From contig CAZLCT010000002.1 of NCBI GenBank assembly GCA_964558015.1, positions 1 through 61,860 of the forward strand: DNA of 61,860 nucleotides. The letters run 5' to 3'. The position numbers and the translations under genes were made by a program. Shown here piece by piece: positions 3,001-26,915 of the stretch; position 1 is the first letter of the stretch; each line of letters opens with the position of its first letter. This DNA comes from an uncultured bacterium (GTDB taxonomy: Bacteria; Omnitrophota; Omnitrophia; JAHJGZ01). The notes below the pieces were generated by a model, which saw nothing but the letters and a program-made list of their open reading frames with translations, searched no databases and was not told the DNA's origin.

Positions 3001-6000
3001 GATTTAGTAATATACCAACGCTGAGGGCTTGGGTCTAAAACATCATCTAAAGCCTTTTTTTCAAAACTATCCGCTGAATTTTGATTTTCTCTATCAGATA
3101 TTTCTTCGTCGTCACTTCTTTTACTAATAACGCGGCGCTCTTTTTTATCCTTGATTGAACGTACACGCACTTTATGCTCTCCTTTATCAAGCCGTATCTC
3201 GCCAATTTTTTCTTTATAATCATGATCCAATATAGGAATGCCGAGAAAATGTTCATGCAACTTGATAACAAAATCTCTCAATCGCGTGTGTTTCAAATAA
3301 AATATAATACCGGCATGACCAGCTGCGAACTCGATAAAAATTGTTGGTTTCTCCCCACGCACTTCTTTTAACTCTGGAATAATATAATCTGTAATCTTTT
3401 TTGCTGTAATTGCCTCACGATATCCCCCCATGAAATTATAAAAATGACTAATAGCAAACAACGGATTTATCACAGCGTTCCATTTTTTATTTGAATATAA
3501 AGTAAGGCAGAATGTTACTAATGGGAACACTAATGGCATCGTCCACAAAGAAGGAAAAAGGCAATAATAAATATATGGAATAGTTATCAATAGTGCCGCT
3601 AAAATTATTGCGCCAATCACAGAAATTTCTTTACCTGAAAGCGGCGGTATATCTGTATAAAATACAGGCTTATTATGTTTTATCAGGCTGTCAACTATGT
3701 TACTATACTGAACATACCCTCGCAAACCATCTAAATCCAAATTCGCATATCTGTTTACTCCTGTCTCAAGAACAACAGAATCTACTTGTTTCATGATGTG
3801 TTCGGGTACTTTACTTTTAATAAAATGTTTAGCAAGATGAAATATAAAGTTGGCATCATTTGTTGAAAAATAAAGCATGTCATTGCTTGCGCTGTTCCAC
3901 ATCCGATGAAGCGCAATCGACACAACGATTATGAGCGGATGTGTGCTGAATAGAAATGGCGCATTAAAAATTATTCCGCCAACAAAATGATACCAATTAC
4001 GTCTTTCTTTACCGTGTGCCCCCCAGAAAATAAACGCATTCACAATTGCAACAATACCTAACCCGCTGTTTATACCGTAAAAAGAGGGAAAGAAATTAAG
4101 GAATGGCATAAAAAAATCGATAATACTAAGGCCAAATATAGGAAGCCGTGAAGCAGCTGTGATTTTCATCCATTCTTTAAAACTAATGTTACTTATCCTA
4201 AGTTTGCGTAATAGAACCGACGTGTTCCCAAAAAATCTCTTTAAAATAAAAAGCGGTATAATACTTATGTAACCTATCTCCTCGATCCACGGCGCATAAA
4301 ATACTTCAACATTGTGACGACTCTTCTGCCATTCTTTCTCAGTCATCCCTTTAGGTTTTGTATCGAGCCCGAATAACCGGTACATCTCGTCAAGAGTGGC
4401 AGACTCTGTGTCCTTTGTGGCACCCCGTTGTTTGCTTGTTAAGTTTTTAGCAAAGTAATCTACCGTAATACCATAGAAACGCATGCGATCTTTTAATGTT
4501 GCAGGTGCTATGCCTAATAATGCCGCAGCCTGTTCGGGATTCCCCTTGGCTGTACGTAATGCTGCTATAATGTCACGTTTTACTTCTTGATGTCTTTTCG
4601 ATTTCACTTTTTCATATAGTGGATGCCTAAATGATTTACTCTCTAACTCATAAATTGAAATATCTAATAATTCAGCTGCTCTCGCTATATCCTTACCAGA
4701 CATTTCCCATACAACTTCGAATAAAAGTAACTCAAGAGCGCGGAGTGAGCGCCAGCCAAAATCAGGAATTGCCTTACGTGCGAGTAAGTCTTTTTCTAGC
4801 TTATATTTTTCCAGCAATAAAGATAAGCTTTTCTGGGAAGGTCCTAAGTTATATGACATTGCGCGCACATCATTTTCATAGCGCTGAGCAGATTGTAATA
4901 CGGCGATTTTTTTCAGCCCCTCCAACGGCTTTTCAAATTGTGGAATGAGATATTCTTGAAAATACAAGCTAATAGTAGCATCATCATCCACACTTTCGTA
5001 CGCTCTTAGATATATATTAGTAAGATAGCGCACACGCTCTTCAATATTGAGAAACGAACCCGGTTTTAGATGCTGCACGAGGAAACATATTTCATCTCTA
5101 TTTAACATTTTCTTTTTCTTTATGGTTTCGGTGAGTATCTCATGCAGATCTCTCCGGAATTGTCTATTGCGGCCACTACACAAAGTTTCAATCTGTTTGA
5201 TACTAATCTCACCCTCTAAAAGATCATTAATTAAATCCCCATTAAGAATAATATATACAAGAAGTTGTTGATCCGTGAGAAAACCTGGTTTATTAGAATA
5301 TTTAGCTTGGGTGATAAGTGCAAGGGTGCGGAAACTCTGAATGGAAGAAACAGGGATAGAGTCCTTATCATCTAAATCAACAGCATACATCCTTATCGGC
5401 CTAAACCATTTGACTATACTTCTAAGAGGTTCCTGAAGGTTGTGGAAAATGATGGAGAGTTGCGGAAGGTTACGAACTAAACGAGAAATAAATGGTTTCC
5501 AGCTTCTAGATAAGTCAGAAACAAAATAGTTTTTTACATTTTTAAAGAAGTTTTGTACAGTTGTGCGGACGGTTGGGTTGGTCCAGAGGAAGGATAAATA
5601 TAAAATAACCGCTACAATCCCGATAGCGGATGAAAAATATTGTGATACAAGAAGCAGCTTAATCTGTCCAAGTGTCTCCGCACTTACAATGTGCAAAATA
5701 AAACTTTTAAGTGTAGGGATAGTAAGAAATCCTATACCCATAGCGGCAAGCACGCAAACTATATTCAATACCGTAGATCCTTCCTTTCCTTCTATTGAAC
5801 TTCCTTTTTTGAGCTTTACTCCAACTTGGTCTTGAGTGTCTTTTTTCTCAAAACTGCTTAAATCCATGCCGGTTAATTTGGCAATACCTGGATCAATTAT
5901 TGTCTGAATAAACTCATGTCGAGCGATTTCAAAGATAATTCGACGAATTTCATCTACTGACATACTATTCAGTGTTTCCAACAAATCATAAACCCTTTCA

Positions 6001-9000
6001 GAAGAAGGTACTAATTTATCTACTGAGGAGAAATATAGAGGTATGGAATCTCCTTCTAATTTATTGAGTAAAAGGTGCGTCGCAAGGGCATAGGTTATTG
6101 GAACCTCATTTTTTTCGTTTTCTAAAATTGAACCTGCCCACCACTTTTTTATTATTTCACAAGGATTAGGAGCATATGCAGCAATTGCTAATTCACCCAA
6201 CAGGGCGTCAATGGCATCTCCAATGGCAATACAATCTTTTCTGCTTTTTATAATACAGTTATCATGCATTAAATATTTCATTATTTTTACTAAATGACTG
6301 TCAGGTTTCAAAACTATACGAAATAAATATTCCTGAATTGGAAAAGATGATTCTATCTTTTTCCATAGATAGTTCTTTTGAGCGAGAAAAATATCTGAGA
6401 CCAAAAAATATTTAAGGTAATTATCCAACCAAAGGTTACCTTTCAATAAATCTTTCTTATCAGTATTAAAAACTTTGTTCCACTTCCAAGCTTGAAAATC
6501 TCTACCCATACAACCCGGCAACAAAACTACATCCTGAGGTTTCATTTTACCTCTTTCAATAATCCTCTTGATAAGATCCTTATAAATAACAATATGTTTT
6601 TGTTCTGAAAAATTTATTTGTGCAACGTAATACGTTTTTACATTCGAATAGTCTGAATAAAAACGGGCTTTATGTATATCGTACTTTTCTCCAAAAAATT
6701 CGTATTCATCTGTTTTTTCAATTAAACAAAGTTCAGGAATAAGAACCTCTTCAGCCTTAAGTGAATCAGAAGTCCGAAATGAAAATAGCACCAACATCAG
6801 GTCATACGGCATTAAAACCTTATTTACAACATCTTTCAAATATTTACCGAAAAGTTTAAGATTTATTTCCTTCTCATCTTTAAATGCCAAAGCTGAATCG
6901 CGAAAGATCTTCTGTTGATCTGGCTCTAGCAATGCTGAAAGCTCCAAAGACGCATTTATGAGCTGGTCAAACGACTCAGCATTTATGTGGACTAAAGGCT
7001 GAGTATGCATTCGCCTCCAATTTTTTTCATACCAAGCACAAATCTTAAATTCCGGCTTATTTACACCCGGAAACATCTTGCTTATAATGATAAAAGACTT
7101 CATATTCATACCGAAGCAGCGTTTATAAAGTTTATGTAATTCTTCAGAAACTGCTTTTCTTTGCTTATTGTTCCATAGAATAGAAATATCTAATTGTGCT
7201 TTGATATCGCTGAGAAATCTTTGAATGGTTTTCTGGTTAATATCATGAAACAACCGAGAACTACTCATATGCATAAGTTCATATAAAATAGTATCGGTTA
7301 AATCATCTGCAGGTATGTTGCTATAATTTAAATTTTTGCGCATCTTTTCAAATTCAGAAGCCTGGGCACCACCTAATAAATCAATATCGTTTATTTTCAT
7401 ATGTAGGGTTTTATGTGCAAAAAAAGCGGAAAAATCTTTTTCGAAAAAATCTTCTTCTGCCGGATATAAATCCCAGCCAAGTTCAGCTAATACAGGATAA
7501 TCCTCACGCAATAAATAAACGACAAATTTACGTGAAAAAAACGATTCAAGATATTGTTCGGGTCTCCCCTCAGATTCATTTAAAGATAAATATTCAATCG
7601 AACCCGGCTCCTGCCTCTTCTCAGCATTCATTACCTGATAAAAACGCTTCCTTATCTGAGCCGAAAGAAGTTCACGCCATAAAAATGAACCAATTTCTCT
7701 TAAAATGAATACTTTCCAACAAAGATCTACAGACACTTTATCCTTCATGCGCCTGCTCATTATCTTCTCATGTATTAAAGTAAAATAACTCACTGACGAG
7801 ATCAAATCTGCATAGAATTTTGGTATGGGTGCACTTAAAGTTTTAAGAACAGACACTATATTAAAAGAAGGCAGAAATGTCATTTTTTTTATATCTTCAT
7901 CGGATATAATCTTCTTATCATAATCAGGCACTAAAAGAGTACAATACGCTGAGCTTTTTTCTACCCCTTCCTTCTCAGTATAATCTTTATGAATAAATAT
8001 TCTCTTCCCAATGACCGTATCTCCAGTGGATGCTGAAACATTCAGATAAAAAAATGCAGGATCCGGATAAAAAAGGCCTTTCAGGTATGCAGGCATGTAA
8101 GATACTATGTTTGTAAGAAATTCAGGTGAAATTGGTCGCGCCAATCCTTGAGCGGGCCTGTCACTATCTGCCATATTCGTGCCGAATAAATAATCCTTAA
8201 ATTCATCAAATCCCTTAATTTTTTTCATACTAACAATACTAAGAGGTGACTCAGCTATGGTCTCTTTTAGGACAAAAGGACTTCCTTCATAATCGCTAAT
8301 AATGTCTTCACTTGTCTGTTCCTCTTCTGTTTCCTCCGGTGTTGTCTCTTCTGTTTTAAAGTCTTTTTCTAAAGTAATAGTTTCTGGAAGCAATAAAACT
8401 TGAAAAGGTTCTAACTGTTTCACAAATTTTAAATCTTCTGCGTCAATCTTACATCCAGTTCTTAATATATGGTCTACGACTTCTTGAGTCGCAGCATCAA
8501 TTTTAACAGACTCACTAACAGGCTCTGCTAATACAGGCAAAAGTTCTTTAGTCTCAGGAGGAAGTTCTTCATATAGAGAGAGCGGCTCTTGAGGTTCTGA
8601 AACCGTCTCATCAATAGGCTCTGGATCTACAAAGATAGGAATTATATCTTCCTGAATAACTTTTTCCTTTTCTTCAAGCTTATCAGGAGAAGTAACCTCA
8701 TCTTGAGGAAAAAGAATAATACCAGTTGCTGCCCCTGGTGTTCTCTCAAAATCGCCTAATTCTAACATTTCATAAGCAGGTTTAAGCTCTACAGACTTCC
8801 TAGGCTGCTCTTCTTTTTTATCTATTTTTACAATTTCACCAGCACTCTCTTTTGCTGTAGGTTCATCAATACATACGTCTATTAATTCTGCTAATTCTGA
8901 AACTTCCTGTACGTAAGCAGGATCTTTCGGGTCTATTTCCCTTTTCTTTTGAGCAATTACACACGTACCCTTACCAAAATGCCTCCGCAGCTTACGTTCT

Positions 9001-12000
9001 TGTTCTTCATCTTCCACTATTTTCCATATAACACTTTCAGGATATTGCAAATCTTCATTTAATAAAAATTCTTGTGCTTCATATCCAAATTCATCCAACA
9101 TCAAAGTAATATAGTCCTCATCTAAATCTTTAATGCTCGATATAATTAAATATCCGTCTAAAGCTACTACACGATTCAACTCTTGGAAAAACTTCACTTT
9201 CTGATCGGGGCTAAGATGAGTATTCCGGGCAATAGTTTCATAAAAATCCAGGTTTACAACATCGAAAGCACCGTCTTCCAGAAAAATTTTGTTTCTAAAA
9301 ATATCTATATTTTCCACCTTATGTTTAAGAGGACCTAGGTCACTGCTTAAATTTTTAACTACCTTTTTAGCCTCATCAAGAAGCCCGCTGCTCAAATGAA
9401 ACTCATGAAAGCTGATCTTCTCAATAGAATGACCAATATCTTCAAGTAAATGATTAACCTTGGCTAAAGCTTGAATAGCGCTTGCACACTGTGAATTCAG
9501 CAAACCCCAACGTTCTAAAGCTATCTCTTTTCCGTACCTTTTTTGCTCTTCATAGATCATCTCGAGAAATCTTGCTAAAATAGAAACGTGAATTGTAAAA
9601 GGTGCAAGTTGCTGAAGATATTCGGAATGTTGAGGTGCGCACCTATCCCAATATTGAGGATCGCCTCTTAAAAAAAACAATGTTGCAATTCCCATACGGC
9701 TACGATGAATTTGAAGCTCAGTCGGTTCTTCATAGACTTTATAGACCTTTCTTTCTCTAACTTTTCTCACCTCTGAAGGTAGTTTTTCTTTTTTAGATTT
9801 TCTTATTTTTATACCCCTACGTATCTGATTATACTTTTCTTGAAATAATGTCTTTTGCCAGTTTGGCATTAATTCAAGTCTGCCACTTTTTAATATTTCA
9901 TGAGCACCTAATACAATACGCTTTTCTGAGTATGGATTGTAGTAAGTATATGCCCATCGGATTTTATGATTAAATGCACACTTTGTTTTAGTTTCTGGAT
10001 AATATGCCAGTGCAAGCCCCCACTGATCACTCAGTATATCTTCTATCTGCTCATCCTGGGTCACATCTATCGAATATTTACGCACCGCCTTATCAAACCA
10101 TGGTTTATCCTTAAGCATTGACTTTGAAGGCTTATCAATACGCTCATATTTCATAAACACTTCTGGCTTAACCCAATTTTCTTCCGTCTTCCACTCTTTT
10201 GGCATCCACTCCTTTCGCGCCATTTCAATATTTCTCTCGATTTGGGGTAGATTTAGAATCTTTGAAAAATCAATTTCAGGCTCTGTCCATTCTGCTTTTG
10301 TTTTTCGAGCTGGCTTTCTCTTAACAGGCTCATCTGGATCAACAGCGTACATTTTGATAGGGCTAAGTAATTTGACTAAATCACTAAAAGGTTTCGAAAA
10401 GTCACGGAAAGTTACAGATAGTTGCGGGAGGTTACGAACTAAACTAGAAATAATTGGCTTCCAACTTTTAGATAATTCAGAAACAAAATAGTTTTTCACA
10501 TTTTTAAAGAAATTTCGTACAGTTGTGCGTACGGTCGGATTGGTCCATAGGAAGGATAAAAATAAAACACCCGCTCCTATCCCGATAGCGGATGAGAAAT
10601 ATTGTGATACAAGAAGCAGCTTAATCTGTCCAATAGTTTCAGAACTCACTATGTGTGGGATAAAGCTTTTGATATATTTAGTTAAAAAAGCACATACTCC
10701 TAATATCCCAAATAAAGATATCAAATATGATGATGCTTCACCTTTCTCACCTTTTTTGATTATTCTCTTTTTTATCAGAAAGTTTTCAGCACGTTCCAAG
10801 AGTATATCAAGTGAAGTTATTGGATTGCCTCTCTTTCGTGCCATTTTTTGTTTATGCAAAAGTAAATCGTATGAATTTGTTACTGTAAAAATATCATCAT
10901 TAACAAGGGCATCCTGTAAGGCCTTCATGCGCTCATCAAGACTTCTTTTTGTATTTTTCTTTTTCTTCGCATTGCTCTTGACTTCCTTAGGCAATTCTTT
11001 TTCCTCAGTATGCTTTTGGGATATATCAGATGAGACTTTTTTAAGAGACTCATTTATTTCTTTAGTCTCTGACGACTTTTCTTCCCTTTTACTTTTTTCC
11101 TTTTCATAAATCTCATTCAATTTTTCACTATAATATATTGCAATGACATTTTTACAAAATTCCTGTATGATTTTAAAACGAAACTTATTCTTCTCTATTC
11201 TATCCCATAAAATATACAATCCCTCGCTTGTCTCTATGTTCTGTATCTCTTTTATTATTCTTGCCGTTTGGCTAACATTGTAAATTATATGACTGAGATA
11301 TTCACTATATCCCTCTTTATAGACCGGATGATAAAGCATGGCATCAATAAGACTCTCAGCCTCAGGTATACGTCCTGTACTTATATAAATAAATGATAAT
11401 AATACTGTGGCTACGACATTTAATGAATTATCAATAATATCTTCGCGGAATCTATTAATACAACTTTCTCGCTCCTCTTTTTTATAATTAACTATTAAAT
11501 CCAGATACTGCAAAATAATAAATTCAGCCTGACTCTTTACATCAACCGCATTTATATTATTTTTAAATAAATTATACCCATTATTGACTAACTCATGCGC
11601 CTTCTCAATATCCCCATTTTTATTAAAAATTTTTGAAAAACTATTAAAAGTACGAATAAGATATAACGTTTCTTCTTTAACCCCAAGAGTATCGTGGTTT
11701 TCCTTAAATAAAGAATATGCTTTATCAAGTAATTTATACGCTTTATCAAGATTTGATCTTTCTTTAAAAGCTATGGCCAGTATACGATATGCATTAATTA
11801 TATAAAAGGCCTGAGATTTAACCCCTTTAGCATGTGGATAATCTATAAATAATGTGCATGCCCTATTAATTAATGCTTCTCTCTGCTCAGGGGTTTTATA
11901 ATCTTTAAACTTAAACGAAAGCTCTTTGTAGGTACTAATAAGATATTCAATAAGATCATTAACGCCTTTTGCGTCAGGATATTTATACAATAGTTCATAT

Positions 12001-15000
12001 GCCTTATTAACTAATTCTTCTGCATGCTCAAGATGCTCAAGGCTATCTAAATCTATAAATTTTCTTGCAAGTCTATTATAAACATCAACAATGTATGAAC
12101 TTTGTTGTTTAACATTCTTTGCATTGGGATAATCACTTAATATACTATATGATTTATTTATTAACTCTTCTGCGTGCTTAAGATTTCCTTGATTTATAAA
12201 TATTAAGGAAAGAGCATTATAGTTACCAATAATATATCTAATTTTGTCCTGAACTCCTTGAGCAAGCGTATAATCTCTCAAGATCTTATAAGCTTTATTG
12301 ACCAACCTTTCCCTTAGCTGCAAATTTTTTGTCATCTTGATTCCAACTCTAGCAAAAACATCAATAATTATGTCAGCATTCTGCTCAATCATTTTTTCAT
12401 CGAAGTACTCATTAAATATGTAAATTGCCTTATTAATTAATTCTGCCTCTTTTTCAGTTTCTTCATTTACTCCAAACTCTTTCGCACAATAAAGATAAGA
12501 ACTCATTATATAAGAAGCTTGATCTTTAACTCCTTCTACATCTGGATAATCACAAAACACTGAATATGCCCAATCTATAAATTTTTCTGTTTTATATAAA
12601 TTATCAATCTTTTTTGTATTTCGTAATGCCTTTGCTATACGATTAAGCATAACAATAATATCCTTAGCCTGGCTCTTTACGGTCTCAGAATCAGGATATT
12701 TTATAAGATAGTCTTTAAAAATACGATAGGCTCTAGTTAATTGATCTTGTGCTTTTATTAATTCGTTCTCCATATTTGATTCAGCATTATTTAATAACGC
12801 TATAATAATTTCATTATTAATGTTTTCTTCTGCTGCATAAGCAAGGTGGGGCAAATATAGTTTAGCCCCATTCTGAATATCGTCTTTTATTCTTGTTTCA
12901 AATTTTTCTGCCACTGTTTGGGAGCATAAAAAACGATAATGTTTCCTTAAAACTTCTTTAAGAATATCATTTACCCGATAAAAACACATATTAGGAAATG
13001 TAATCTTTTCCCAAAAATAACGGAGTTTTTTACTAAAATCTGCTGTTTCGAGCAAAAGAATATTATTTAAACAAGCCATTATGATGGCTGTCTCTTGTAT
13101 TTCAACGTTTATATCATATTTACCAATATTAATTCCTTTACGAAATTTCATTGCCTTTTTTGCTATACTACATGCTTCATTCAATCTATTCATGCGAAGA
13201 TAAATAAATGATATTATAGTTAATACTATGCTATCATCCGGATGAAATAATCGAATGAAAAGAAAATGCTCGAGAAAATCTTGTAACTCCTCTTTTTTAC
13301 AATCCGTAAGAAAATTCATATAAGAAACAATAATAAAATCTTCTTGATTACAAACTTCTGAGATATGAGAGTACATGTTAAACATTTTGTGAGCCTTATT
13401 AATCACTTCAAGTATTTGTCCCCGTTCCTTATAATCCTCAAAGTGTTTTGCTAGTCCGTTTAAAATATCTATATTCTTAACAATCTGTTTCTTAGCCCAC
13501 TTGTCATTAGGATGCATACTAATATAATCTTCTGCTACAGCACAAGATTTATAAATAGCCTTTTTTGCCTTTTGGAATTTACCACTATTTTTAGACTTAT
13601 AATATTCGGCCCGTAAAGAATCAATCTTATTTTTTACAGCCTCGTCTAATCTATTCCCATAATAGACTCCTTCATCTAATTTGCCTAGCTTCTTTAATAA
13701 AGCCTTCTCTTTTTTAATGTATGGTGCTATTTGTTTCAGTATTTCTTTATTTAGTTTCGATACAGGAAACTTTTCATTAATAATCTCTTCTGCCTCATCC
13801 TTTATTTTAACAAATATATCAGCTATGCCGTCCTTCCCTTCGATATCTTCTATATATTCGGGTTCGGTTATATTATATTTTTTCATTTTTTTATATAGCG
13901 TAGTTCGGGATATGCCTAATTTTCTGGCTGTTTTGGATTTATCTCCTTTATAAATTTTCCGTATCACTTCCTCTTCCAATTGCTCAATTAAATTATTCAA
14001 ATTTAATCCTTCAATTCCTTTAGTAGAAAATGAATATTTTAAACTAAGATTCTTCAGTGCATAAATACCCTTTTTTTCGAACTCTTCTTCGACTGTTTTG
14101 CAGAATAATTCAACCACTTTAATAGCGTGAGAAATATTACCGTCTGCTATATTAAAAGCATTTTTGATTGCCTTCTTTTCAATATAATTAATTAATACTG
14201 TAAAATTTATTTCTTCTTTTTTATTAACAATACCGTTATATTTTTTTATTTTATTCAAATCTATGCCATACTCTCTTATTTTTCTTAATATTTTCTCACG
14301 GCCTATTCCCAACAACGAAGCTGTCTTATAAGCAACACCATTTTTTAGACTAAGTGCGTGCTCGATTATCTTTTTTTCTACTCTTTCCAAAGAAGCCTTC
14401 ATTTTATTTATTGCATCTTGATCTTTTGGGTAGACATATTTGTCTTTCAATGAATTGCAGGATATCCCTAATAACCCAGCCGCCAAAGTCTCGTCACTGC
14501 CTGTTATCATAAGTGCACACCTTATAGCTTCTTTCTCTATATACTTAAGAAATGTTTTAAGTCTATTTTTCTTAGAGAGAATAAAAGATGTAAAATTATT
14601 ATCGTAACTGGCAGTCATCCCAAATTGTGTTTCCATAGAATCAGAACACGTCCAAGGAATTTCTTTACTATCAAAAAGATCATCTTCGCCTTTTAGATCT
14701 TCATTATCCACATTTACGGAACTGCCTAAAAAGAATGGGACAAGTTCCAAGCGATCACGTAAAATCTCCCAATCAGGAAATAAATCGGGAAAGAAATACC
14801 ATAGTAAGAAAGAAACAATACCAATGAATCCCATAAACGACATCAATTCTATTAATACATAACCGTTTCTCTTCTTTATGTTATTTTTACCCCAGTAATA
14901 TTTAGCCGTGTTAAATCTATCCTCGCCATTCTTTATAACCTTAAAAATATCTTTATTCCTCAATGATTCCTTAATGCCCTGCTTCTTACCAACATATACA

Positions 15001-18000
15001 ACTAATAACCGGGTATTCTTTTCATTGGTAAATGTATAAACAAGCCCGGTTTTTTTAGTATAAAGAACAAACAATCTATTCTGAATATCCTGAACAGGTG
15101 CTCCTTTTATGACCAATGGATTGTGTGTGTTATTCTTTACCATCTCCCCGATATTCTTTATTAATTGTTTCTTTTCAACTCCACTAATGTTTTTCCATGA
15201 TCTAAAAAAGCCTTTAGTAAAACGAATCTCCTCTATAGCTTTCTTTTCTTGCTCTCCTGCACCATGTTTTTTACGTTTATATTTACGCTTTTCTTTCTTT
15301 CTTCCTTTTCCCGGTTTTTCCTCAATATCCGTAATACTTTGAAGAACCTTATTAGCCGACTTAATCCCGGCGCGCGCCTTTTTTAACACTCCTTCTATTA
15401 TCGGATCATCGCTATCTCCTTCATATTTTGATATAATCTTTTCGAACATTTTTACGATTTCATTTATTTTTTCTACACTTTTAGCACTAGCGACTTTATT
15501 CAATTTTTTTTGCGCAATATTTAATCTGTTTTGTGCTACACTCCTTCTTCTTATAATTAAGTTTTCTTCTTTATCTTGCGAAATTAGAACCCTCAATTTT
15601 TTCAAGCGCTCCGATATACCTGGATGTTCCGGATGCAGCTCTTTGATCTGAGTCAGTAACCCGGATTCTATATTCCATGCTCCTTTCTCACTTGCCTCCT
15701 TAACTTTTGATAAAAGCGAAATAATACTATTCGCCTTTCTGTATATCTCTTTCAGACCTTGATTCCGCCAATCCAATTCCAAACCTATGCGTGCAATCTT
15801 TGAAGATTTAGCATAGTTGTTAGCATTAAACCTTTTGTGTACTTCCTGATATATCGAGCTTACTATCTCCTCTTTCTTATCCTGATTATACTTATTTAAC
15901 AGAAGGATGATGCCTCTTGCCAAAGGCTGCGGAAGGTTTTCATAAGACATGAGTAACAATAATGTATATAAATCTTCAGAGTGTACGTTATCATATAAAA
16001 AATAACGTTCCTTCTCGTCAATTTTCAAAAAAATCTCATTTAAAATAAGCCACGCTTTATCATAGTCATCTTGTAACGTAGCAATTATTCCTTTGTAAAA
16101 TTGTATTTGATTAAGCTTTTCTTGTCCGAATTTTTTTTCTACAGTAAGAATTTCCCTGGCAATTGCTTCTGCTCTGTTTAAACTTTCCTGAGCTACCTTT
16201 AAACTGTCAAATTGCTTAAAAAACTTGATAATTATAGTAGCTCTTATTAAATTAACATCAATGGCATACATACTTTTTTTTATTACATCTTCTTTTGATA
16301 ATAACTCATCAGAAACATCATCAAGAAAAAGAGTTTCTACAACATTTAATAAGCTGAGAGCTTCCTCATAATCTCCAGCATCGTCATATAAATCTATCAA
16401 TGCAAGATAATCTAGTATATTCTGTGTCTTACCAATAACACGAACAAAATCCTGCTTAGCTTTTTCTGCATATCTTTCCTTTAAAGTCTTATCGTCTTCC
16501 TCCTGAATTATTGCATAATATGAATGCCCGCGCAGACTATACAATAGAGTGTATAATTGTTCATCATCTTCAGGGGCTATGTTTAGTTCATCTTGGGCTA
16601 ACTCGACTGCCTTATCAAACAACGATATAGCACCAGTGTATGACCGCCTTTCAAAATAATAATGACCCAATGCTATGGTTACATTTAAAAGAACAGTACG
16701 TTTGTATTCATAACTCCCAACCGTAGTACCACTGTCTTTTTTCTCATCAGATCTCCTTATTAGATTATCTAAAAGTCTAAGCGCTTTGCGTGGCTTCTTT
16801 TGGGCTTGCCTATCAATTATACTGCTTATATTTTTTATACAATCAGCTCTAAGATAAGTTGCTCCTTGTTCGTCTGCAGATATGAGCACTTCTGAATATA
16901 CTCTCAGGGCGGAATCCCATTCCTCATCATATCCCATACTTATCGCAAGTAAGTATTTTGCGAGAGGATTATCCGGCTCTATTGCAAAAACGCAATTTAG
17001 CGATTCCATATATTTTTTACTATATTGTAATAATAAAGCTACAAATGCATATTTAATGAGCACATTAACGTTTTCTGGTTCTTTTTCTTTTATTTCAGCT
17101 AATTCATTCATTTTTTTTATGCGCAACTTATTATCAAAATCTATTAATTCATGCAATTCAAAAAATAATAGATCAATAGGATGAATCCCTTCTGCCTCCG
17201 GAGGAAACGTTTGTATGCTTTCTTCTTTCTCTAATATTTCATTAATCTGCTCATTAAGCTTGGTGAAAGATTCCGGATCAGTGCTTACTTCTTTAAATTT
17301 TTTAGGGGATTGCAAAGCTTCTATATTTGAAATCGCATTGATATGCCGAATGGAAGCATTACTGAGTTTTGGGGTAACTTTTCCGTTTTTGTCAAGGAAG
17401 TCTAACGATATAAGACCGTTTATTTCATCGCGAAAGGTCGACTTACTAAAAGGTTTGCCGGAGGGTGCGCCACGTGTTTTATGCAAACTGCGCCATATCA
17501 CTGTATTACCGTTAATGAGGACTGCACCTCGGTCTTTAACCTTTATGGGTATATCTCCAATTATATCCCTAGCCGCCCATAAATCTCTCAGACACTCGGC
17601 AACTGAACCTTGAGGCTTTGGTTTTTTCCTTTTGCTCTTAATAATATCATCCTGTTCTTCGATTTTCCCTCCCACAGCAGGCTTTCTTGTAAGTACTGCA
17701 TGCACATTTTTCAGAAGTTCGTCGAATTTGGTTTGGTCTTTAGCTTTGGCGAGCCTTATAATCCGTCCAGCAGTTAAATTAAAAGACCGTAATGCTTCAA
17801 TCTGTTCTTGTGACGCATTAAGTAATATCTTTCTGATATAATAGTATTTTGTTCCATAACGCGAATATTTTCTCTTTTCACAATCTAAAAGTTCTAAGAG
17901 AGTAAGCGCTTGAAACCTCTTTCTAATAGTTTCTATTTTGCATTCCACTTCTGCATCTGATTCCCGCTGCCATCGGATAACTTCCCCTGTAGATTTTGTA

Positions 18001-21000
18001 AGGACTCCGCGGTCATTAACACACAGAGCTTCCCCCTGAAGCTCGTAGCGGTATTTCCATAAATTTTCAATCCACCTTATGGACAGGTTTTGATTTGGTT
18101 TAATTTGTAAAATATCCTGTATGTCTTTTTTAAACTTTTCAAAATTATGCTTTGTATTTTTACTTTTACTCATTGCATAAAGCGCAGAATGACTCATCGT
18201 CTTTAATAAAGGCATCCCCTGAAAAGAGACGTTAACAAGTTCCTCGATCTTTTCTTTATTAGCAGTAACTATTTCATCAATAAGGTAATGATCATATTGA
18301 TTTCCCTTAGCCTTTATCTTTATTAGAAGACCTAATTCTGTAAGCAAAGGTCGAACTTGTGGTATCAATATTTCATCAAGTTTTTGTCCCTTTAGTTCAG
18401 AACGCCGTTCCCAAAGACGCCATATGATATTCGCTACTTTCCCTTCAAGAATGCGTTTTTGTTTGTTTTCAACCCCAACCTTTCGGTACTTTAGTTCTCT
18501 AGAAGAAGAACCCTCGTATTTCTTAACAATATTTTTCATTCTTTCTTCAGTTCGATAGGAGATAACTTGTTTTTTCATATTAGTGCATAAAAAATCAAAC
18601 CATTCACGATTAGTTACATACAATCTCTCCATAAAGGATTCTTTTGGATCCTGATATACTGGAAGTTTTTTGGAAAAAAGATGCGGTTCAAGTAGTTCGG
18701 TTACCTCTCGTGGATAGTGTCTAAATGCTTCCTGAAAGATTCTGAATATATTAAGGACCGCTGTTAACCTTTTAGCCGGAGTGCGTGGCCCAAAAAGAAG
18801 TCCCATAATAAAAAGAATAGTATCGCCCTTGAGCGTTTTTCCTTCATATGTATAGGTATATTTGTCTTTTCCTTTCAAAACTCTAAGTAAAAGTTTTTCG
18901 TCTTTTATTAGTTTTGTTACTTTTTTAAAAAGTTTATCTTCATCATATCCGTAAGGAGAAAAAAAGTTCAGCATATCACGAAGAGTTTCTTCATCCCCAG
19001 ATGGTTTAGCCTCTTCCTTTTTTGGCTCAGACAATGATGCCTCCTCCGCTTTTCCTTTTCTTCTTACCTTGCTTTTTTCTTTATTAAACTCAAATTTACT
19101 AAAACTTTCTCCATGTTCTTCTTCAAACTCCTCAAGCTGATTAATAGCATTTATTATTGCTTCGCCAAATTCCCTTTTCAATGTATCTTGAAAACTTTCT
19201 TCGCCACCTACATCTTTATCTTTTATTACACCAAAAAGGTCAATCATGAGTTCCGTGGTTAATTCTGTATTATACCTTTCTAAACGATAATCTACATACA
19301 TCTTCATCGTCTGGACAACTGCAGGAGGATCATTTCCTATCCTTTTCTTTAACTCTTCTTTTATAAAATCAATACCTATTAAAATCTCACGGCGTAGCTC
19401 CTGGTTTCTTTTCTCTTCTTTCGACAAAAGTTTTTTGGCTTCTTTTGATGTTTCCGCATTCTGCCTCGAACTACCACCGCCAATAATGCTATTAACGGGT
19501 GATTGCCATGCTGCAAGAGGAGGATTTGTGAAATTAATATTAGCATTCCATACACGCTGTTGAGTTTCAGAAATACGATGCTGCTTTTTGAGATCTAATC
19601 CCTCACCAGGCAAAATTTCACCTCTTGCTTTACCTTTTATGCTTCTGCCTTCTTCCTCTTCTCCTTCTGCTTTAATCATTGCTCCTAAGGCATCTTCTAT
19701 TCGACTGAGTGCATTCATTATCTCTGCCGTAGGTTCAGTTTTAACTTGCTCTTTTAAGAGACGGCGAGTCATAACAAGACTTTTTCTTACCTTTTGTAGT
19801 TGAGAGGGGAGTTTTATAAACACCTTGCGTTCAGAAAAAATATTGGTAATTGACTCTGTCTTTTTAATTGCTACACGGAACATGCCTCGTTCTATAAGTG
19901 AACGTAATTCACTCATATGACTCCTAATCATATCAAGAAATTGACGCTCTTCTTCTAGCTGTGTAAGTAGTTCTTTTATACGACTTTTAACTTTTTCTCG
20001 AATTCGTTCTATCTCACCGATGCGTTTTTCCCTAAGATTTTCAATAGCTAGATTTATCTGACCTATGGCCTCCTTATATGATTCTTGTTCTAAGAATCCT
20101 TCGGAACCAACAATTTCAAGCAGGTGTGTATATGCATCCACCTTGCCTTCCACATGCCCACGTTTAAGCCATACTAAAATATTCCACAATGTTTGCAGTG
20201 CGGCTTCATGATTAAGGCGTGATACGCCGTGCTGCCAATCGGCAAGATATTCATCTCTTACGTATGTAAGGAGTGCAATATTATCAATAATAGTAAGGAT
20301 ATCATCATCCTGACTTTCTAAAATATGATTATGTGCGCGAATTGCTGTAAGTAAAGAATCATAAATAATCTCTACCCACATTTTCGTACTTATCTTATGT
20401 TCTCCTACAAACTCTTTTATCCATCGCTGCTGCAATACCACAACTTTCCTGTTAACATCATATTGTGCTAATCCTAATTCTGTAATAAACTCTCCCATTC
20501 GTTTATCAACATCAAATTCCTCTCTTCGACTCTCTTTGAACAAACGAATACGCTGCCAAAATAGTTCATTCGCATGGATACGGAATGTTCTGCGCACGCC
20601 TAGCAGTGTGGCACTCACAGCACCTGTATTCCCTTCACTGAAGAGCGATAAAGCACGAATTAGTTGTATTTTCCCTTTCTCACGCAGTAATTCTCTCTTT
20701 TGTTCATTCAGCAGTGTTAGCTTATCATCATCCTTAGCCTCATATGCTTCAAGAATATCTCGATCGGTTTCTTTGATATTTATATTAATTTCATCCAACC
20801 TAATGCGCATATCTGTTGGGTCTTTTAAAATAAAAGAAAATGTTATCTCATCATTAATACGCTGTATCTCATTTCTGATTTCACTAAGTTCTTCAGACTT
20901 AAACTCTTCAATTCCGTCTTTCTTGATTCGACGTATGCCAGCCATAACACGCTGAAGGCTAACATTTAATTGTAATAACTGCACCGCCCGGCTTCTAAGC

Positions 21001-24000
21001 CACTTCTCTTCTTCAGAAAAATTCATCTGTCTTTCTTCCTTTGCTTTCTGGGGTGTTTTTCCCACACCACTACGGGTGCCAGAGGTACCACTACTCATTG
21101 GCGAACTATATGCTGCAAGAGGAGGGTTTTCGAAATTAATATTAGCATTCCACACAGCTTTCTGTTTTGGAGAAATATAATGCCCACCATGAGGATCTTT
21201 TCCTTCACCAGGGAGAATAACTCCTGTTCCTTTAATTTTAAGCTCGGCTGTTTCCAGCCCTTTCCGATGTTTATATTGCTCATAAGCTTCATAATAGAAT
21301 TCGCTGAATTTAATTACCATCGGCGGGAAAAAATCTCCAACAAGCAATTCACGGATTCCCCCTTCTTCGCTAAAAATCAACTCACGATCTTTATTCCTCG
21401 CCCCGATACTATACTTTTCGATACTTTCTTTCGTATGTGATTTGCTTGTGTAACCCATTTCATCTAACTCAGTAAACCCTTCAACATCCCCCACCCAGAT
21501 AAGTTTTATCTTTTTATCTTTAACGATCATCCTTATATTTTCAGTATGCATGTCTGACTCTATAAATGAATCTTTTTCACCTACATCAAGATGCCAACCT
21601 TTGTAACCGGCATGATGCATTTTTGCTAAAAGCACAGCACATTGTTTAACTATATCCGTTTGCATTTCCTTAATGTCGCCACCATATAAATTAGGGTTCT
21701 CTTTAATGATTTTATCAAACCCTTCCCGTCCTACATTTAATAAGCGCCGCCCGTCATTATTGTATTCGAATACTGCAAAACGTAATGGCCTTTCATCATC
21801 GCATATCCAAGGCTCATCTTCTCTATACATAGAATAGGTACCATGAGGCATCTCACATAAAAGAAGCGGCCTTATCATGGCTTCCGGATATTGTGCAGAA
21901 ATATCTTGAGAAAAATAAAAGTTCTTTTTATTAATGATTCTTCTTTTTTCCAAGAGACCGGGAATTTTTATCTCAACCGCATAGTTGACTGTACCATCGG
22001 CATTCATTTCAAAAACAATGTGGCGCCTGAATGACTCTGTCACCGGTGTAATATAAATATTTCCTTCCAAATTAAGATAATATCCCTTTCGCAAAGCATA
22101 GCTGAGTGACCCTTCAATACCAGAAGGACGATACTTCTTATCCTTATGATCGAACCGGCTGCGTAATGTTGATGCAATTTTCAAAAGCTTTTCTGCTTTT
22201 ACTGCATTGGTAAACAATTCAAACATATCAGGATGTTCTTTCCTAAATTGTGTATCTTTATTCTCAAGCACCTCTGCCATATCTTTATGTGAATCTATAG
22301 TACTGGGTAAATCCTGTGCTGATAATTCATTGATTTCTTCCGCTTGCCAAATGCGAGCGGGACGTTTTATTGAAGGTAATGCACAAAACCATTGTATTTC
22401 GGCCTCACCTTGTTCATATTTCTTTATTTTATCTTTAACCTCAACTATCCTTTTTTGAAAATCAGGATCATTCATGACGCATTTAGCAATCTCATCAGCT
22501 AATCCGTAGCTTGCATCGCTCACTCTTTTATCTGAAGTAAGAGGCAATCCATGTGTTGTATACGTCAGGGAGTCCGCATTCTCATGATAAGCAATAAGAG
22601 GAAAAAATATTGTACTTAAATTATCAGCCAATATTTCTATGTTCGATAAGAAGGAAGGAATCCCGTACAGCCTTGGTTCTTTGTTATAGTAGTCATTCGG
22701 TATCGCATATTCATTCCTATGTTTTTCATTTGAATAAAGTTTCACACTAGCAAAGGTAAGATATAAAGCTTTCTCTTCATCAATATGCAACGATTTTCGT
22801 AACCGTTTAAACAAAAACGGTGCGACGGTCCAAAATACAAGACTTGTTAGATTCTTGTTAGGAAAAGGGGGACGAATACCGAATATGCTACTTGCTTTAT
22901 CTTTTCTAAAATATCGAATCAATGCCTGGGTAAATTCTTTTTCCTCAGTCCGCCTGAATTTATGAAGCATACGCACAGCATGTGTATTATGAAAGCAATG
23001 CCTAAGCAGAGAAAAAAGCTCCGCAACCTCCTGCTGTTCATCTTGATTGTACGAGGCCAAGATAGATTCTTCTTGGTCTAGGTCCCTTTGATCAAGCATA
23101 TCCCATGTAAGTTTGTTAGTATATGGTTTACCCTCATTTTCTTCTTTTATACGCTCATAAAATTGCGTTAAACGGGGGCTTTGAAATGTCAGTTTGCTAA
23201 AATGCCATGATGCATTTTCACGTTCCGCATGTAATAATATTGTGATATCACGTTCTATTTCTAATTCCATTATTCTTTTTTTTGCCCATTCTGTTAATGA
23301 TTTGATAAACGCCTTATCGGTTGCCTTTTGTATTTCCATTGGGAGATTCATTATGAAGAAAGCCAGACCACCTTGATCACGTATATAATCCTCTTTTTTA
23401 AGTAATCCCTCTGTGTGATAAGGTAATAATTCTTTACGGAATTTCAGTAACTTATCAAATTCTTCCCGTGCAGCAGGATTTTCTTTCAAAACTTCTAAAC
23501 CCTCAATTAAATGTTTCACTCCGGGATGCCTTTTTTTGTAGTATTCCGCTAATCCTTCGACTGAATCAGGAATATCATCTTCTGAAAAAGTGGCGTTTGA
23601 CACCGCTTTTTCATCTGCAGGCATATACTTAATTAACATATCCCTGCGCTGCCACTTGTAATTAATGTCTAGTGCACTCTTAATCTGTGTAAGATAAAAA
23701 GCATCCTTCATCATAGGTGTTTCATTAATAGTACGCAGATTCGCCTGTCCTTTAAATATCCGGATTGTCGAAGTTTTCCATGCATTAATAAATTCAGGAG
23801 TGAGACGCCTTAAATCAATGCCTAAAATGCGCGAACCGGTCGAAATAATTTTGAAATTTTCACTCACCTTTAATAAACTTCCCCCCTCTTCATCCTGAAA
23901 ATATTTTTGAACGCGTTTATCATCAAAGAGGTGCTCCAAATCAGCTTTGGTCATATCATTAACCGCTGCTTTTTCCTTACCCGCAAGAATTACTTTATGC

Positions 24001-26651: not shown

Positions 26652-26873
26652 ACCTGTTAGTGACGTAACAGTAAAAACCACTACCATACATAAAGCAACA
26701 CACTTACATTTAGAAGTTTTAAAATAAGTTATAAGGGTATTTTCATCCATATTTGATTATCCGATCTATTCTCTGGAATACTATTGTGATAAAACCATGA
26801 AGTACAAATCTAAAGTGTCATCTTGAACAGCGAGTAATGTGGTGGATTTGGCCTTAAAAGTACTTTAATCAAT

Positions 26874-26915
26874 AAAAAAAGCCAGCCACAAACATTAATC
26901 ATGTTTGCAACTGGC
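26874..26915 (-). terminator. Rho-independent terminator closing the upstream (DUF362...) transcription unit, just ahead of the giant gene
   Basis: On the minus strand the arms gccagttgcaaacat / atgtttgtggctggc form a stem with a 3-nt internal mismatch and a 5-nt loop, followed by T7 (plus-strand A-run 26874-26880). Confidence 0.6.

What the first reader, a model, noticed from the sequence alone, without database searches (positions are those of the whole stretch)
13870..14570. Four tandem Fis/NtrC-type HTH modules (plus two more at 4465-4750) inside a membrane-spanning giant protein
The E(K/E)xxIxxAL...(A/T)Axx LGI(S/G)Rxx LxxK(I/M)(K/R)xYGI pattern occurs four times in 230 residues. Unit 4, TARKLGISRTTLYKKMKKYNI, is near-consensus. 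A second pair at 4465-4750 includes AAALLGIAPATLKDRMRFYGI. HTH_8 modules normally occur once, at the C-terminus of enhancer-binding proteins or in Fis itself. I know of no precedent for six copies in a protein that also has about 11 TM segments. They could tether DNA to the membrane, or they may have been co-opted as protein-protein modules.
Basis: partly seen in the sequence, partly recalled or inferred. Interest (0 to 1): 0.65.

Follow-up and report, generated by a model that had tools for sequence, protein, structure and literature searches.

The report
Fis-type DNA-binding modules in giant protein
A gene for a membrane protein of more than 8,900 residues carries three copies of a double Fis/NtrC-type helix-turn-helix module (one worn-down unit plus one intact, basic unit each), an unusual place for DNA-binding domains, but their function is untested and the protein has no detectable relatives.

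Summary
One unbroken ORF (window 26750 to 1, more than 8,916 codons, cut by the contig end) contains six Fis/NtrC-type HTH_8 units. Only three are canonical by Pfam: u2 35.3, u4 40.0 and u6 30.5 bits, against a cutoff of 22. Unit u1 is sub-threshold but scores above every shuffle. Units u3 and u5 are marginal.

The real repeat is a di-HTH module of about 115-130 residues, made of a degenerate, near-neutral unit followed by a canonical, basic unit. It is present three times, and the copies align collinearly (E 6e-9 to 4e-5). A model of one module (pLDDT 82) shows two three-helix units. Its best structural matches are Fis and NtrC-family DNA-binding domains.

No sigma-54 AAA+ domain is present. 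I found no orthologue of the region in 1.84 billion representative proteins, GTDB genomes or JGI metagenomes.

Tandem HTH_8 arrays do have precedent, in small proteins of 100-261 aa with 2-4 units, two of them in mobile-element or phage contexts. I found none in a giant membrane protein.

My best reading is that these are membrane-tethered DNA-binding modules. Sidedness and DNA binding are not shown.

In passing: a c-di-GMP-I riboswitch with a terminator lies just upstream of the giant gene.

The parts
1..26750 (-). Giant ORF. ATG at 26750, more than 8,916 codons, no stop before the contig end, so the C-terminus is missing.
   Evidence: Six-frame stop map and translation. The source assembly calls a gene of 8,913 aa that runs off the contig.
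14418..14567 (-). HTH_8 unit u1 (degenerate). Net charge +2. Cys replaces the recognition-helix Arg.
   Evidence: Pfam HTH_8 15.3 bits, below the cutoff of 22. External HMM 9.3 bits against a shuffle maximum of 2.6. Modelled as a three-helix unit, pLDDT about 82-85. Charge, Cys.
14250..14411 (-). HTH_8 unit u2 (canonical). Net charge +7. Arg retained (codon 14298-14300).
   Evidence: Pfam HTH_8 35.3 bits, E 9.3e-9, full profile 1-42. Modelled at pLDDT about 91-93. Foldseek top matches are Fis and NtrC1/NtrC4/ZraR DNA-binding domains.
14052..14213 (-). HTH_8 unit u3 (degenerate). Net charge 0. First helix conserved, recognition-helix region replaced by VVELFCKTVEEEFEKKGI.
   Evidence: Pfam HTH_8 12.4 bits, profile positions 5-24 only. 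External HMM -0.5 bits. Supported by the collinear alignment of pair u3+u4 with pair u1+u2, E 6e-9 over 125 aa.
13860..14009 (-). HTH_8 unit u4 (canonical, best). Net charge +6. Arg retained (codon 13905-13907). Sequence TARKLGISRTTLYKKMKKYNI.
   Evidence: Pfam HTH_8 40.0 bits, E 3.3e-10. External HMM 50.5 bits. Nearly identical recognition helices occur at the C-termini of ordinary sigma-54 activators, for example L003 'LGVNRTTLYKKMKKYNITF'.
4608..4757 (-). HTH_8-like unit u5 (most degenerate). Net charge -2.
   Evidence: No Pfam hit. External HMM 0.2 bits. Placed by the collinear alignment of pair u5+u6 with u1+u2 (E 8e-8) and with u3+u4 (E 4e-5).
4455..4601 (-). HTH_8 unit u6 (canonical by profile). 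Net charge +4. Pro replaces the recognition-helix Arg.
   Evidence: Pfam HTH_8 30.5 bits, E 2.9e-7. External HMM 16.9 bits. Residue at the Arg position.
14802..14858 (-). Strong hydrophobic (transmembrane-like) helix about 80 residues upstream of u1.
   Evidence: Kyte-Doolittle 19-residue mean 2.28. Flanks: 5 K/R on the N-terminal side, 1 on the C-terminal side.
5601..5774 (-). Transmembrane-like hairpin (two helices, 20-residue loop) about 280 residues upstream of u5/u6. It lies in a 162-aa internal repeat (5307-5792) that is 57% identical to 10281-10754.
   Evidence: KD 2.24 and 2.11. Internal repeat E 1.4e-58.
10563..10736 (-). First copy of the transmembrane-like hairpin.
   Evidence: KD 1.84 and 1.61. 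Internal repeat.
11196..13472 (-). TPR/PPR-like helical repeat region downstream of the four-unit array.
   Evidence: Pfam TPR_14, TPR_12, TPR_19 and PPR hits near or below cutoff. Internal repeats E 1e-7 to 5e-15. This is the only part with distant relatives, P0001-P0003.
23676..24521 (-). ARMT1-like / DUF89 damage-control phosphatase domain.
   Evidence: Pfam PF01937, E 6e-36. PDB 2g8l, 2ffj, 1xfi. NCBIfam NF040824 partial.
26652..26708 (-). N-terminal hydrophobic segment followed by ...ATAQP, resembling a signal peptide or anchor.
   Evidence: Translation. KD 1.86. The signal-peptide reading is by eye; no predictor was run.
26903..27000 (-). c-di-GMP-I riboswitch aptamer in the 5' leader of the giant gene.
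   Evidence: Rfam RF01051, 58.2 bits (gathering score 35), E 8.5e-9, model positions 1-87 of 87.
26880..26916 (-). Intrinsic-terminator hairpin (16 bp stem plus T run). Its 5' arm overlaps the 3' end of the aptamer.
   Evidence: Terminator scan. MFE fold -45 kcal/mol, z -4.96. Sequence.

Best explanation
Shown:
- A real, continuous giant ORF encodes three copies of a di-HTH_8 module of about 115-130 residues.
- Each module is an N-terminal degenerate, near-neutral HTH_8-like three-helix unit followed by a canonical, basic Fis/NtrC-type HTH_8 unit.
- Two modules are adjacent (window 13842-14591), about 80 residues after a strong hydrophobic helix. The third (4437-4781) lies about 280 residues after a transmembrane-like hairpin.
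- The copies are old duplicates (24-31% identity, no nucleotide repeat).
- They are not attached to any sigma-54 AAA+ domain.

Inferred:
- The modules derive from the same pool as the C-terminal DNA-binding domains of sigma-54 activators and the small stand-alone tandem-HTH_8 proteins.
- Each module folds as a single-chain pseudo-dimer. Fis and NtrC DNA-binding domains dimerise through the long helix that precedes the HTH (established knowledge). Here only the second unit would be competent to contact DNA. Units u2 and u4 retain the Arg equivalent to Fis R85 and are the likeliest to contact DNA. In u6 that position is Pro.
- If the N-terminal segment is a signal peptide and the two hairpins return to the same side, both HTH regions face the cytoplasm.
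- The modules would then hold DNA at the membrane-embedded giant protein. That could mean a membrane-tethered regulator or nucleoid anchor, possibly acting on its own locus. Expression of the gene would be switched on by c-di-GMP through the leader riboswitch.

The DNA-binding step and the sidedness are inference only.
For: - Continuous ORF.
- HTH_8 above the Pfam cutoff for u2, u4 and u6.
- NCBIfam matches only the C-terminal HTH tails of AtoC, DhaR, NtrC, Fis and TyrR.
- PDB sequence hits are Fis, FleQ, NtrC and TyrR.
- An independent HMM hits these six sites, far above shuffles for four of them.
- The pairs align collinearly (alignments A1 and A2).
- Charge alternates +2, +7, 0, +6, -2, +4.
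- The model of u1+u2 has pLDDT 81.8 with two three-helix units. Foldseek gives Fis at probability 1.0 and NtrC1/NtrC4/ZraR DNA-binding domains at rmsd 0.5-0.7 A over 37-47 residues.
- Arg is present in 72 of 72 sampled enhancer-binding-protein tails, and in u2 and u4 here.
- Hydrophobic helices flank the modules, with an even number of strong helices (two hairpins) between the two HTH regions.
- Riboswitch and overlapping terminator.
Against: - No experiment or DNA-complex model supports binding.
- Four of six units lack the key Arg, and three are degenerate, which also fits decay or co-option.
- The charge bias at the helix before the array (5 K/R on the N-side, 1 on the C-side) favours N-in/C-out. 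That would put the four-unit array outside the cytoplasm and conflicts with the signal-peptide-based topology.
- Model pTM is only 0.49, so the mutual packing of the two units (the pseudo-dimer idea) is not supported by the model. No coordinates or PAE were available.
- The alignment behind the model has only 8 rows.
- No orthologues exist to show that the modules are conserved under selection.
- The C-terminus of the protein and the organism are unknown.
Confidence: 0.5

Rival explanations
1. Co-opted or decaying modules. The HTH_8 units no longer bind DNA. They serve as small helical dimerisation or protein-protein interaction modules, or as inert spacers, within a mosaic giant protein that has accumulated domains of many origins.
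For: - Three of six units are degenerate, and four of six lack the Arg that all 72 sampled activator tails have.
- Odd-numbered units are neutral or acidic.
- Giant proteins of this general kind are reported as mosaics of hundreds of Pfam families, including cytoplasmic signalling domains (10.64898/2026.06.07.730766, read).
- A distant giant relative, P0003, carries RNase III, HATPase and methyltransferase domains.
- The HTH_8 long helix is a known dimerisation element in Fis and NtrC (established knowledge).
Against: - u2 and u4 are near-consensus, strongly basic (+7, +6) and keep the Arg.
- u4 is 47-76% identical to the DNA-binding tails of working-type activators.
- Retaining a canonical unit in all three ancient copies argues for selection on that unit.
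Confidence: 0.27
2. Releasable regulator. The giant protein is cleaved, and the fragments carrying the di-HTH modules are released from the membrane to act as soluble transcription factors. This would be analogous to regulated proteolysis of membrane-tethered regulators.
For: - Processing of giant proteins into smaller polypeptides has been proposed for Omnitrophota giants on the basis of peptidase domains (10.1101/2023.11.21.568195, read).
- Each HTH region lies shortly after a hydrophobic anchor.
- In activators, HTH_8 is normally a C-terminal end module, so the units may mark former or functional module boundaries.
Against: - No peptidase domain was detected in the 8,918 visible residues.
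- No cleavage motif was identified.
- The idea is purely by analogy.
Confidence: 0.1
3. Extracytoplasmic DNA binder. The four-unit array lies outside the cytoplasmic membrane and binds extracellular or prey/host DNA as part of a surface-exposed, c-di-GMP-induced giant envelope protein.
For: - The charge bias at the helix preceding the array favours N-in/C-out.
- c-di-GMP riboswitches commonly control surface and attachment functions (established knowledge; riboswitch).
- Most domains of the described giant proteins are predicted extracellular (10.1101/2023.11.21.568195).
Against: - HTH_8 domains are known only from cytoplasmic proteins (established knowledge).
- With the N-terminal signal-like segment, this topology needs an extra, undetected membrane crossing.
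- Those authors themselves call such predicted localisations unreliable.
Confidence: 0.08
4. Not a real feature: chance similarity of a generic K/E/L/I-rich helical repeat to HTH_8, or an ORF artefact that joins separate small genes.
For: - The protein is rich in K, E, L and I.
- u3 and u5 are individually at chance level.
- The gene is incomplete and the assembly is a short-read metagenome contig.
Against: - Three units pass Pfam's curated cutoff, with E 3e-10 to 3e-7.
- Shuffles never exceed 2.6 bits, against 50.5, 28.4, 16.9 and 9.3 observed.
- Fold matches are to Fis and NtrC.
- 26.7 kb without a stop codon in DNA of 30-39% G+C across the ORF cannot be chance.
Confidence: 0.03

Closest known systems
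C-terminal HTH_8 DNA-binding domain of sigma-54 enhancer-binding proteins (NtrC, NtrC1/NtrC4, ZraR, FleQ, AtoC) and of Fis
   Same: Same domain family. Pfam PF02954 exceeds the cutoff for u2, u4 and u6. Three-helix fold with rmsd 0.5-0.7 A to NtrC1/NtrC4/ZraR DNA-binding domains, and Fis as the top Foldseek hit. The u4 recognition helix is almost identical to those of ordinary activators.
   Different: No AAA+ Sigma54_activat or receiver domain anywhere in the visible protein. The units are internal rather than C-terminal, repeated, half of them degenerate, and embedded in a protein of more than 8,900 aa with hydrophobic helices. It is not a 98-aa Fis homodimer.
Small stand-alone tandem-HTH_8 proteins (uncharacterised; P0004 200 aa/3 units, P0005 100 aa/2, P0006 176 aa/2, P0007 261 aa/2, P0008 236 aa/up to 4)
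   Same: Several HTH_8 units in one chain with similar spacing. They align collinearly with the di-HTH modules. They are the best-scoring relatives of the array in 1.84 billion representatives.
   Different: They are short, soluble-looking proteins made only of HTH_8 units, and usually all units are canonical (LGI-x-R kept). P0008 lies in a phage-like gene set and P0004 beside an IS30-like transposase. None is part of a giant or membrane protein.
TM-rich giant proteins of Omnitrophota and other uncultured bacteria (West-Roberts et al. 2023, bioRxiv 10.1101/2023.11.21.568195; Nielsen & Lui 2026, bioRxiv 10.64898/2026.06.07.730766)
   Same: Very long single ORF, signal-like N-terminus plus scattered transmembrane-like helices, sparse mosaic of otherwise cytoplasmic-type domains (here ARMT1/DUF89, TPR, HTH_8), and no sequence relatives. 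Those papers report 94% of such proteins with TM helices or a signal peptide, and 80% sequence singletons.
   Different: The taxon of this contig is unresolved. No SecA_DEAD, dockerin or peptidase domain occurs in the visible part. Neither paper's main text mentions HTH, Fis or DNA-binding domains, and riboswitch and c-di-GMP were searched for in the 2023 paper only, without result. No supplements are held as text for the 2023 paper, and the one held supplement of the 2026 paper lacks PF02954.
Membrane-anchored one-component transcription factors (ToxR, CadC, TcpP)
   Same: Functional analogy only: a DNA-binding domain held at the cytoplasmic face of the membrane by a transmembrane helix in the same polypeptide (established knowledge; CadC example PMC5430869, listed).
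   Different: Those use an N-terminal OmpR-type winged HTH, one copy, in proteins of about 300-500 aa. There is no homology to HTH_8.

Membership tests
HTH_8 / Fis-family DNA-binding domain (Pfam PF02954) | Profile score at or above the curated gathering score (22 bits) | tested here: met
   u2 35.3, u4 40.0 and u6 30.5 bits. Not met by u1 (15.3) or u3 (12.4), and u5 has no hit. Membership is therefore established for three of six units.
HTH_8 / Fis-family DNA-binding domain (Pfam PF02954) | Three-helix fold (long helix plus helix-turn-helix) superimposable on solved Fis/NtrC DNA-binding domains | tested here: met
   AF2 model of u1+u2, pLDDT 81.8, with helices 7-30/34-41/45-51 and 58-82/87-94/98-108. 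Foldseek: Fis probability 1.0; NtrC1 4l5e, NtrC4 3e7l and ZraR 1ojl at rmsd 0.5-0.7 A. E-values are weak (0.1-2) because the domain is short. Units u3-u6 were not modelled with confidence; the single-sequence model had pLDDT 43.
HTH_8 / Fis-family DNA-binding domain (Pfam PF02954) | Conserved Arg at the start of the recognition helix (Fis R85 equivalent, 'LGI-x-R') | tested here: inconclusive
   Present in u2 and u4. Replaced by Pro (u6), Cys (u1, u3) and Ile (u5). Present in 72 of 72 sampled activator tails, a sample biased by the search pattern.
HTH_8 / Fis-family DNA-binding domain (Pfam PF02954) | Binds DNA | not testable with these tools
   Needs EMSA, DAP-seq or a protein-DNA co-fold.
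Sigma-54 enhancer-binding proteins (NtrC family) | Central AAA+ Sigma54_activat domain (PF00158, GAFTGA loop) N-terminal to the HTH_8 | tested here: not met
   No such hit at E <= 0.1 in any of the 8,918 residues. NCBIfam models of AtoC, DhaR, NtrC and others match only their last 30-80 positions, at 16-38 bits against cutoffs of 500-800.
Fis (nucleoid-associated protein) | Protein of about 98 aa with N-terminal beta-hairpin arm and helix A/B dimer core; equivalog-level score | tested here: not met
   NCBIfam Fis equivalogs score 27-31 bits against cutoffs of 99-122, and only the HTH positions match.
Omnitrophota-type giant membrane proteins | Single ORF of 10,000 aa or more with many TM helices or a signal peptide | tested here: inconclusive
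   At least 8,916 aa but truncated. 9-17 hydrophobic segments by KD scan only.
Omnitrophota-type giant membrane proteins | Encoded by an Omnitrophota genome; frequent SecA_DEAD, peptidase C39 or dockerin domains | tested here: inconclusive
   The taxon is not resolved: the GlnRS best non-self hit is 78% identical, with names from several phyla. None of these domains occurs in the visible part, and the C-terminal part is missing.
c-di-GMP-I riboswitch (RF01051), leader of the giant gene | Covariance-model score at or above the Rfam gathering score, full-length aptamer, expression platform | tested here: met
   58.2 bits against 35, model positions 1-87 of 87. An overlapping terminator follows.

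The most novel reading that the evidence does not exclude
The di-HTH_8 modules are working DNA clamps built into a c-di-GMP-induced giant envelope protein. They would physically couple DNA to a membrane megaprotein, a mode of DNA-membrane tethering with no described counterpart. The DNA could be the cell's own chromosome on the cytoplasmic side. If the four-unit array is extracytoplasmic, as the charge bias at the preceding helix hints, it could be extracellular or host/prey DNA.
Probability: 0.15. Interest if true: 0.8.

Novelty: new variant of a known kind. Interest (0 to 1): 0.42.

Why it matters
Giant bacterial proteins are almost entirely unannotated, and no function has been tested for any of them. 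Here a short, well-understood and easily expressed domain type sits inside one of them. That gives a concrete experimental handle: do fragments of 115-250 residues bind DNA, and which DNA?

If they do, it would show that such megaproteins contact nucleic acid, and it would reveal a single-chain (degenerate plus canonical) version of the Fis/NtrC dimeric DNA-binding domain. The c-di-GMP riboswitch in the leader gives a second handle, namely the condition under which the giant gene is expressed.

If they do not bind DNA, the case documents decay or co-option of captured regulator domains in mosaic giant genes.

Tried and rejected
1. Word-indexed homology search with aa ~3900-4500 and with the hairpin plus u5/u6 region: nothing at E <= 1e-3 or 1e-2.
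2. Exhaustive phmmer of 1,200 aa around the array against 1.84 billion representatives: 8 hits and no orthologue of the array. The hits were TPR-like relatives and small tandem-HTH_8 proteins only.
3. Scans of GTDB genomes and JGI metagenomes: 49 loci each. Every tblastn match lies within query residues 513-721 (the u3-u4 region). The two loci inspected (L051, L003) are ordinary sigma-54 activators.
4. Taxonomy through GlnRS: about 75% identity to many phyla, so uninformative.
5. Single-sequence AF2 of the whole four-unit array: pLDDT 43, unusable. I therefore have no confident model for u3/u4 or u5/u6, and no inter-unit geometry.
6. Literature search for HTH or DNA-binding domains in giant proteins and for tandem HTH_8: nothing relevant.
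7. Recent tandem expansion: rejected. There is no nucleotide tandem repeat, and units are 24-31% identical.
8. Enhancer-binding-protein remnant with an AAA+ domain: rejected.
9. Additional hidden HTH_8 copies elsewhere in the protein: none.
10. PDB and NCBIfam scans of the whole protein for other domains: only DUF89/ARMT1.
11. Topology from charge bias: contradictory and left open.
Full report
WHAT IS THERE

All genes of the window are on the minus strand. In minus-strand frame 1 there is no stop codon from window 26756 to base 1, a run of 8,918 codons. An ATG lies at 26750. The source assembly (ENA ERZ27227322, contig k141_2819103, 61,936 bp) calls the same gene as an 8,913-aa product that runs off the contig end. 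The protein is therefore real, giant and incomplete at its C-terminus. The DNA across the ORF is 30-39% G+C. An open frame of 26.7 kb cannot be chance in such sequence.

The finding's coordinates 13870-14570 and 4465-4750 correspond to residues ~4062-4295 and ~7335-7430 of this ORF, counted from the codon at 26756.

ARE THE HTH MODULES REAL?

Pfam on the whole protein gives HTH_8 (PF02954) at 69 bits for the middle third and 26.7 bits for the last third. Each unit was then scanned alone, against a gathering score of 22 bits.

| Unit | Window coordinates | Pfam HTH_8 (bits) | External HMM (bits) | Net charge | Residue at the Arg position |
|---|---|---|---|---|---|
| u1 | 14418-14567 | 15.3 | 9.3 | +2 | Cys |
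| u2 | 14250-14411 | 35.3 | 28.4 | +7 | Arg |
| u3 | 14052-14213 | 12.4 (first helix only) | -0.5 | 0 | Cys |
| u4 | 13860-14009 | 40.0 | 50.5 | +6 | Arg |
| u5 | 4608-4757 | no hit | 0.2 | -2 | Ile |
| u6 | 4455-4601 | 30.5 | 16.9 | +4 | Pro |

NCBIfam models of AtoC, DhaR, NtrC, Fis, TyrR and PrpR match only through their C-terminal HTH tails. PDB sequence hits are Fis, FleQ, NtrC-family and TyrR.

As an independent test I built an HMM only from HTH_8 sequences outside the window: 72 activator tails plus units of P0004-P0008. It gives seven hits in the giant protein. Six are on the six units, and the seventh is a negative-scoring six-residue fragment directly after u2. In 200 residue-shuffled copies the best score was 2.6 bits, and hits at or above 0 bits occurred 0.035 times per copy. 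An HMM of the six units themselves finds no further copy.

Three units are therefore canonical. Unit u1 is a genuine degenerate copy. Units u3 and u5 are individually marginal.

THE REAL REPEAT IS A PAIR

BLASTP aligns the three pairs collinearly (alignment A1):
- u1+u2 against u3+u4: 125 residues, 24% identity, E 6e-9
- u1+u2 against u5+u6: 90 residues, 31% identity, E 8e-8
- u3+u4 against u5+u6: 104 residues, 25% identity, E 4e-5

In each pair the first unit is degenerate and near-neutral, and the second is canonical and basic (see table). The Arg that opens the recognition helix (Fis R85 equivalent, from my knowledge of the Fis-DNA structures) is present in all 72 sampled activator tails. 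In the giant protein it survives only in u2 and u4.

There is no nucleotide-level tandem repeat, so the duplications are old.

STRUCTURE

A single-sequence model of the four-unit array was useless (pLDDT 43).

A model of u1+u2 used an 8-row alignment: the three modules plus five tandem-HTH_8 proteins (A2). It reached pLDDT 81.8 and shows two successive three-helix units, 7-30/34-41/45-51 and 58-82/87-94/98-108.

Foldseek against the PDB puts Fis first (probability 1.0). It superimposes NtrC1, NtrC4 and ZraR DNA-binding domains at 0.5-0.7 A over 37-47 residues. E-values are weak because the domain is short.

pTM is 0.49, so the mutual arrangement of the two units is unknown.

CONTEXT INSIDE THE PROTEIN

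A Kyte-Doolittle scan gives 9 segments at or above 1.7 and about 17 at or above 1.35. The main features are:
- An N-terminal signal-like segment.
- A very hydrophobic helix (14802-14858) about 80 residues before u1.
- Two transmembrane-like hairpins that belong to a 162-residue internal repeat (57% identity, E 1e-58). The second hairpin (5601-5774) lies about 280 residues before u5.
- An ARMT1/DUF89 domain (23676-24521, E 6e-36) and TPR-like repeats. These are the only other recognisable domains.
- No Sigma54_activat AAA+, receiver, peptidase or SecA domain.

If the N-terminal segment is a signal peptide and the hairpins return to the same side, both HTH regions are cytoplasmic. The K/R bias at the helix before the array (5 on the N-side, 1 on the C-side) argues the other way. 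I could not resolve this.

RELATIVES

The word-indexed searches found nothing.

Exhaustive phmmer of 1,200 residues around the array against 1.84 billion representatives returned 8 hits. Three hit only the TPR-like region. One of these, P0003, is a complete 6,932-aa mosaic giant with RNase III, HATPase and methyltransferase domains.

The other five are small proteins made only of tandem HTH_8 units. P0004 gives three significant Pfam stretches and P0005-P0008 two each; my own unit HMM finds up to four in P0008. P0008 lies among phage-type genes (NinB, RusA, pRha, YopX). P0004 lies beside an IS30-like transposase.

Scans of GTDB genomes and JGI metagenomes returned matches only within the u3-u4 region of the query. 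The two loci I inspected, L051 and L003, are ordinary sigma-54 activators with a C-terminal HTH_8.

The array therefore has no detectable orthologue. Tandem HTH_8 as such has precedent. I found no precedent for it in a giant membrane protein.

The organism is unresolved: GlnRS is about 75% identical to homologues named from several phyla.

The two papers on giant bacterial proteins (10.1101/2023.11.21.568195 and 10.64898/2026.06.07.730766) do not mention HTH, Fis or DNA-binding domains in their main text. The 2023 paper's text also lacks 'riboswitch' and 'c-di-GMP'; those terms were not searched in the 2026 paper. No supplements are held as text for the 2023 paper, and the one held supplement of the 2026 paper lacks PF02954. 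The 2026 paper reports 552 Pfam families, including receiver and histidine-kinase ATPase domains, in such proteins. A regulator-type domain is therefore not out of character for the class.

MECHANISM

Best-supported reading (confidence about 0.5): the modules are captured regulator-type DNA-binding domains, each organised as a single-chain pseudo-dimer with one competent half. They are held next to membrane anchors and contact DNA at the membrane.

Shown: domain identity, pair architecture, charge and Arg pattern, proximity to hydrophobic helices, and absence of an AAA+ partner.

Inferred: pseudo-dimer packing, cytoplasmic location and DNA binding.

Rivals:
- Co-opted or decaying interaction modules (0.27)
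- Proteolytically released regulators (0.10)
- Extracytoplasmic DNA binder (0.08)
- Artefact or chance (0.03)

IN PASSING

The 520-nt leader of the giant gene holds a full-length c-di-GMP-I riboswitch (26903-27000, 58.2 bits against a gathering score of 35). The 3' end of the aptamer overlaps the 5' arm of a 16-bp terminator hairpin followed by a T run (26880-26916). Ligand binding should sequester that arm, so the arrangement reads as an ON switch (inference). The giant gene is thus probably induced by c-di-GMP, the signal that in many bacteria governs surface attachment.

VERDICT

Novelty: a new variant (context and architecture) of a known domain kind.

Interest is moderate (0.42). The finding gives a tractable experimental entry into an otherwise dark giant protein. 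However, function is unproven, the gene is truncated, the taxon is unknown, and mosaic domain content is already the described norm for such proteins.

Noticed in passing
window 26903-27000 (-), with terminator 26880-26916 (-): Full-length c-di-GMP-I riboswitch (RF01051, 58.2 bits, gathering score 35) about 150 nt upstream of the giant gene's ATG. It is followed by a 16-bp terminator hairpin plus T run whose 5' arm overlaps the 3' end of the aptamer. This probably forms an ON switch controlling the giant gene. It is the only Rfam hit in the window.
   Followed up: partly
window 10281-10754 (-) and 5307-5792 (-): Internal repeat of 162 residues, 57% identical (E 1.4e-58), inside the giant protein. 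Each copy starts with a two-helix transmembrane-like hairpin (…LLLVSQYFSSAIGI…FLSFLWTNPTVRTTV). It is much better conserved than any other internal duplicate, including the HTH units.
   Followed up: partly
window 23676-24521 (-): ARMT1-like/DUF89 damage-control phosphatase domain (Pfam E 6e-36; PDB 2g8l, 2ffj). It is embedded about 745 residues after a signal-peptide-like N-terminus of the giant protein, so a normally cytoplasmic enzyme domain sits in a segment that simple topology would place outside the cell.
   Followed up: no
L100 177-887 (P0008) and L101 1274-1876 (P0004): Small proteins consisting only of 3-4 tandem HTH_8 units. One lies in a phage-like early-gene cluster (NinB, RusA, pRha, YopX) and one next to an IS30-like transposase. 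This appears to be an uncharacterised class of multi-HTH_8 proteins on mobile elements.
   Followed up: partly
window 1-61860: Every ORF of 120 aa or more upstream of the giant gene (32 of them) is on the minus strand, and GC skew is negative throughout. The window is therefore one long co-directional block.
   Followed up: no
window 34833-37181 (-), 46127-47671 (-), 48786-49712 (-), 52628-53545 (-): Four sizeable neighbouring ORFs (782, 514, 308 and 305 aa) have no Pfam family at E <= 1e-5.
   Followed up: no
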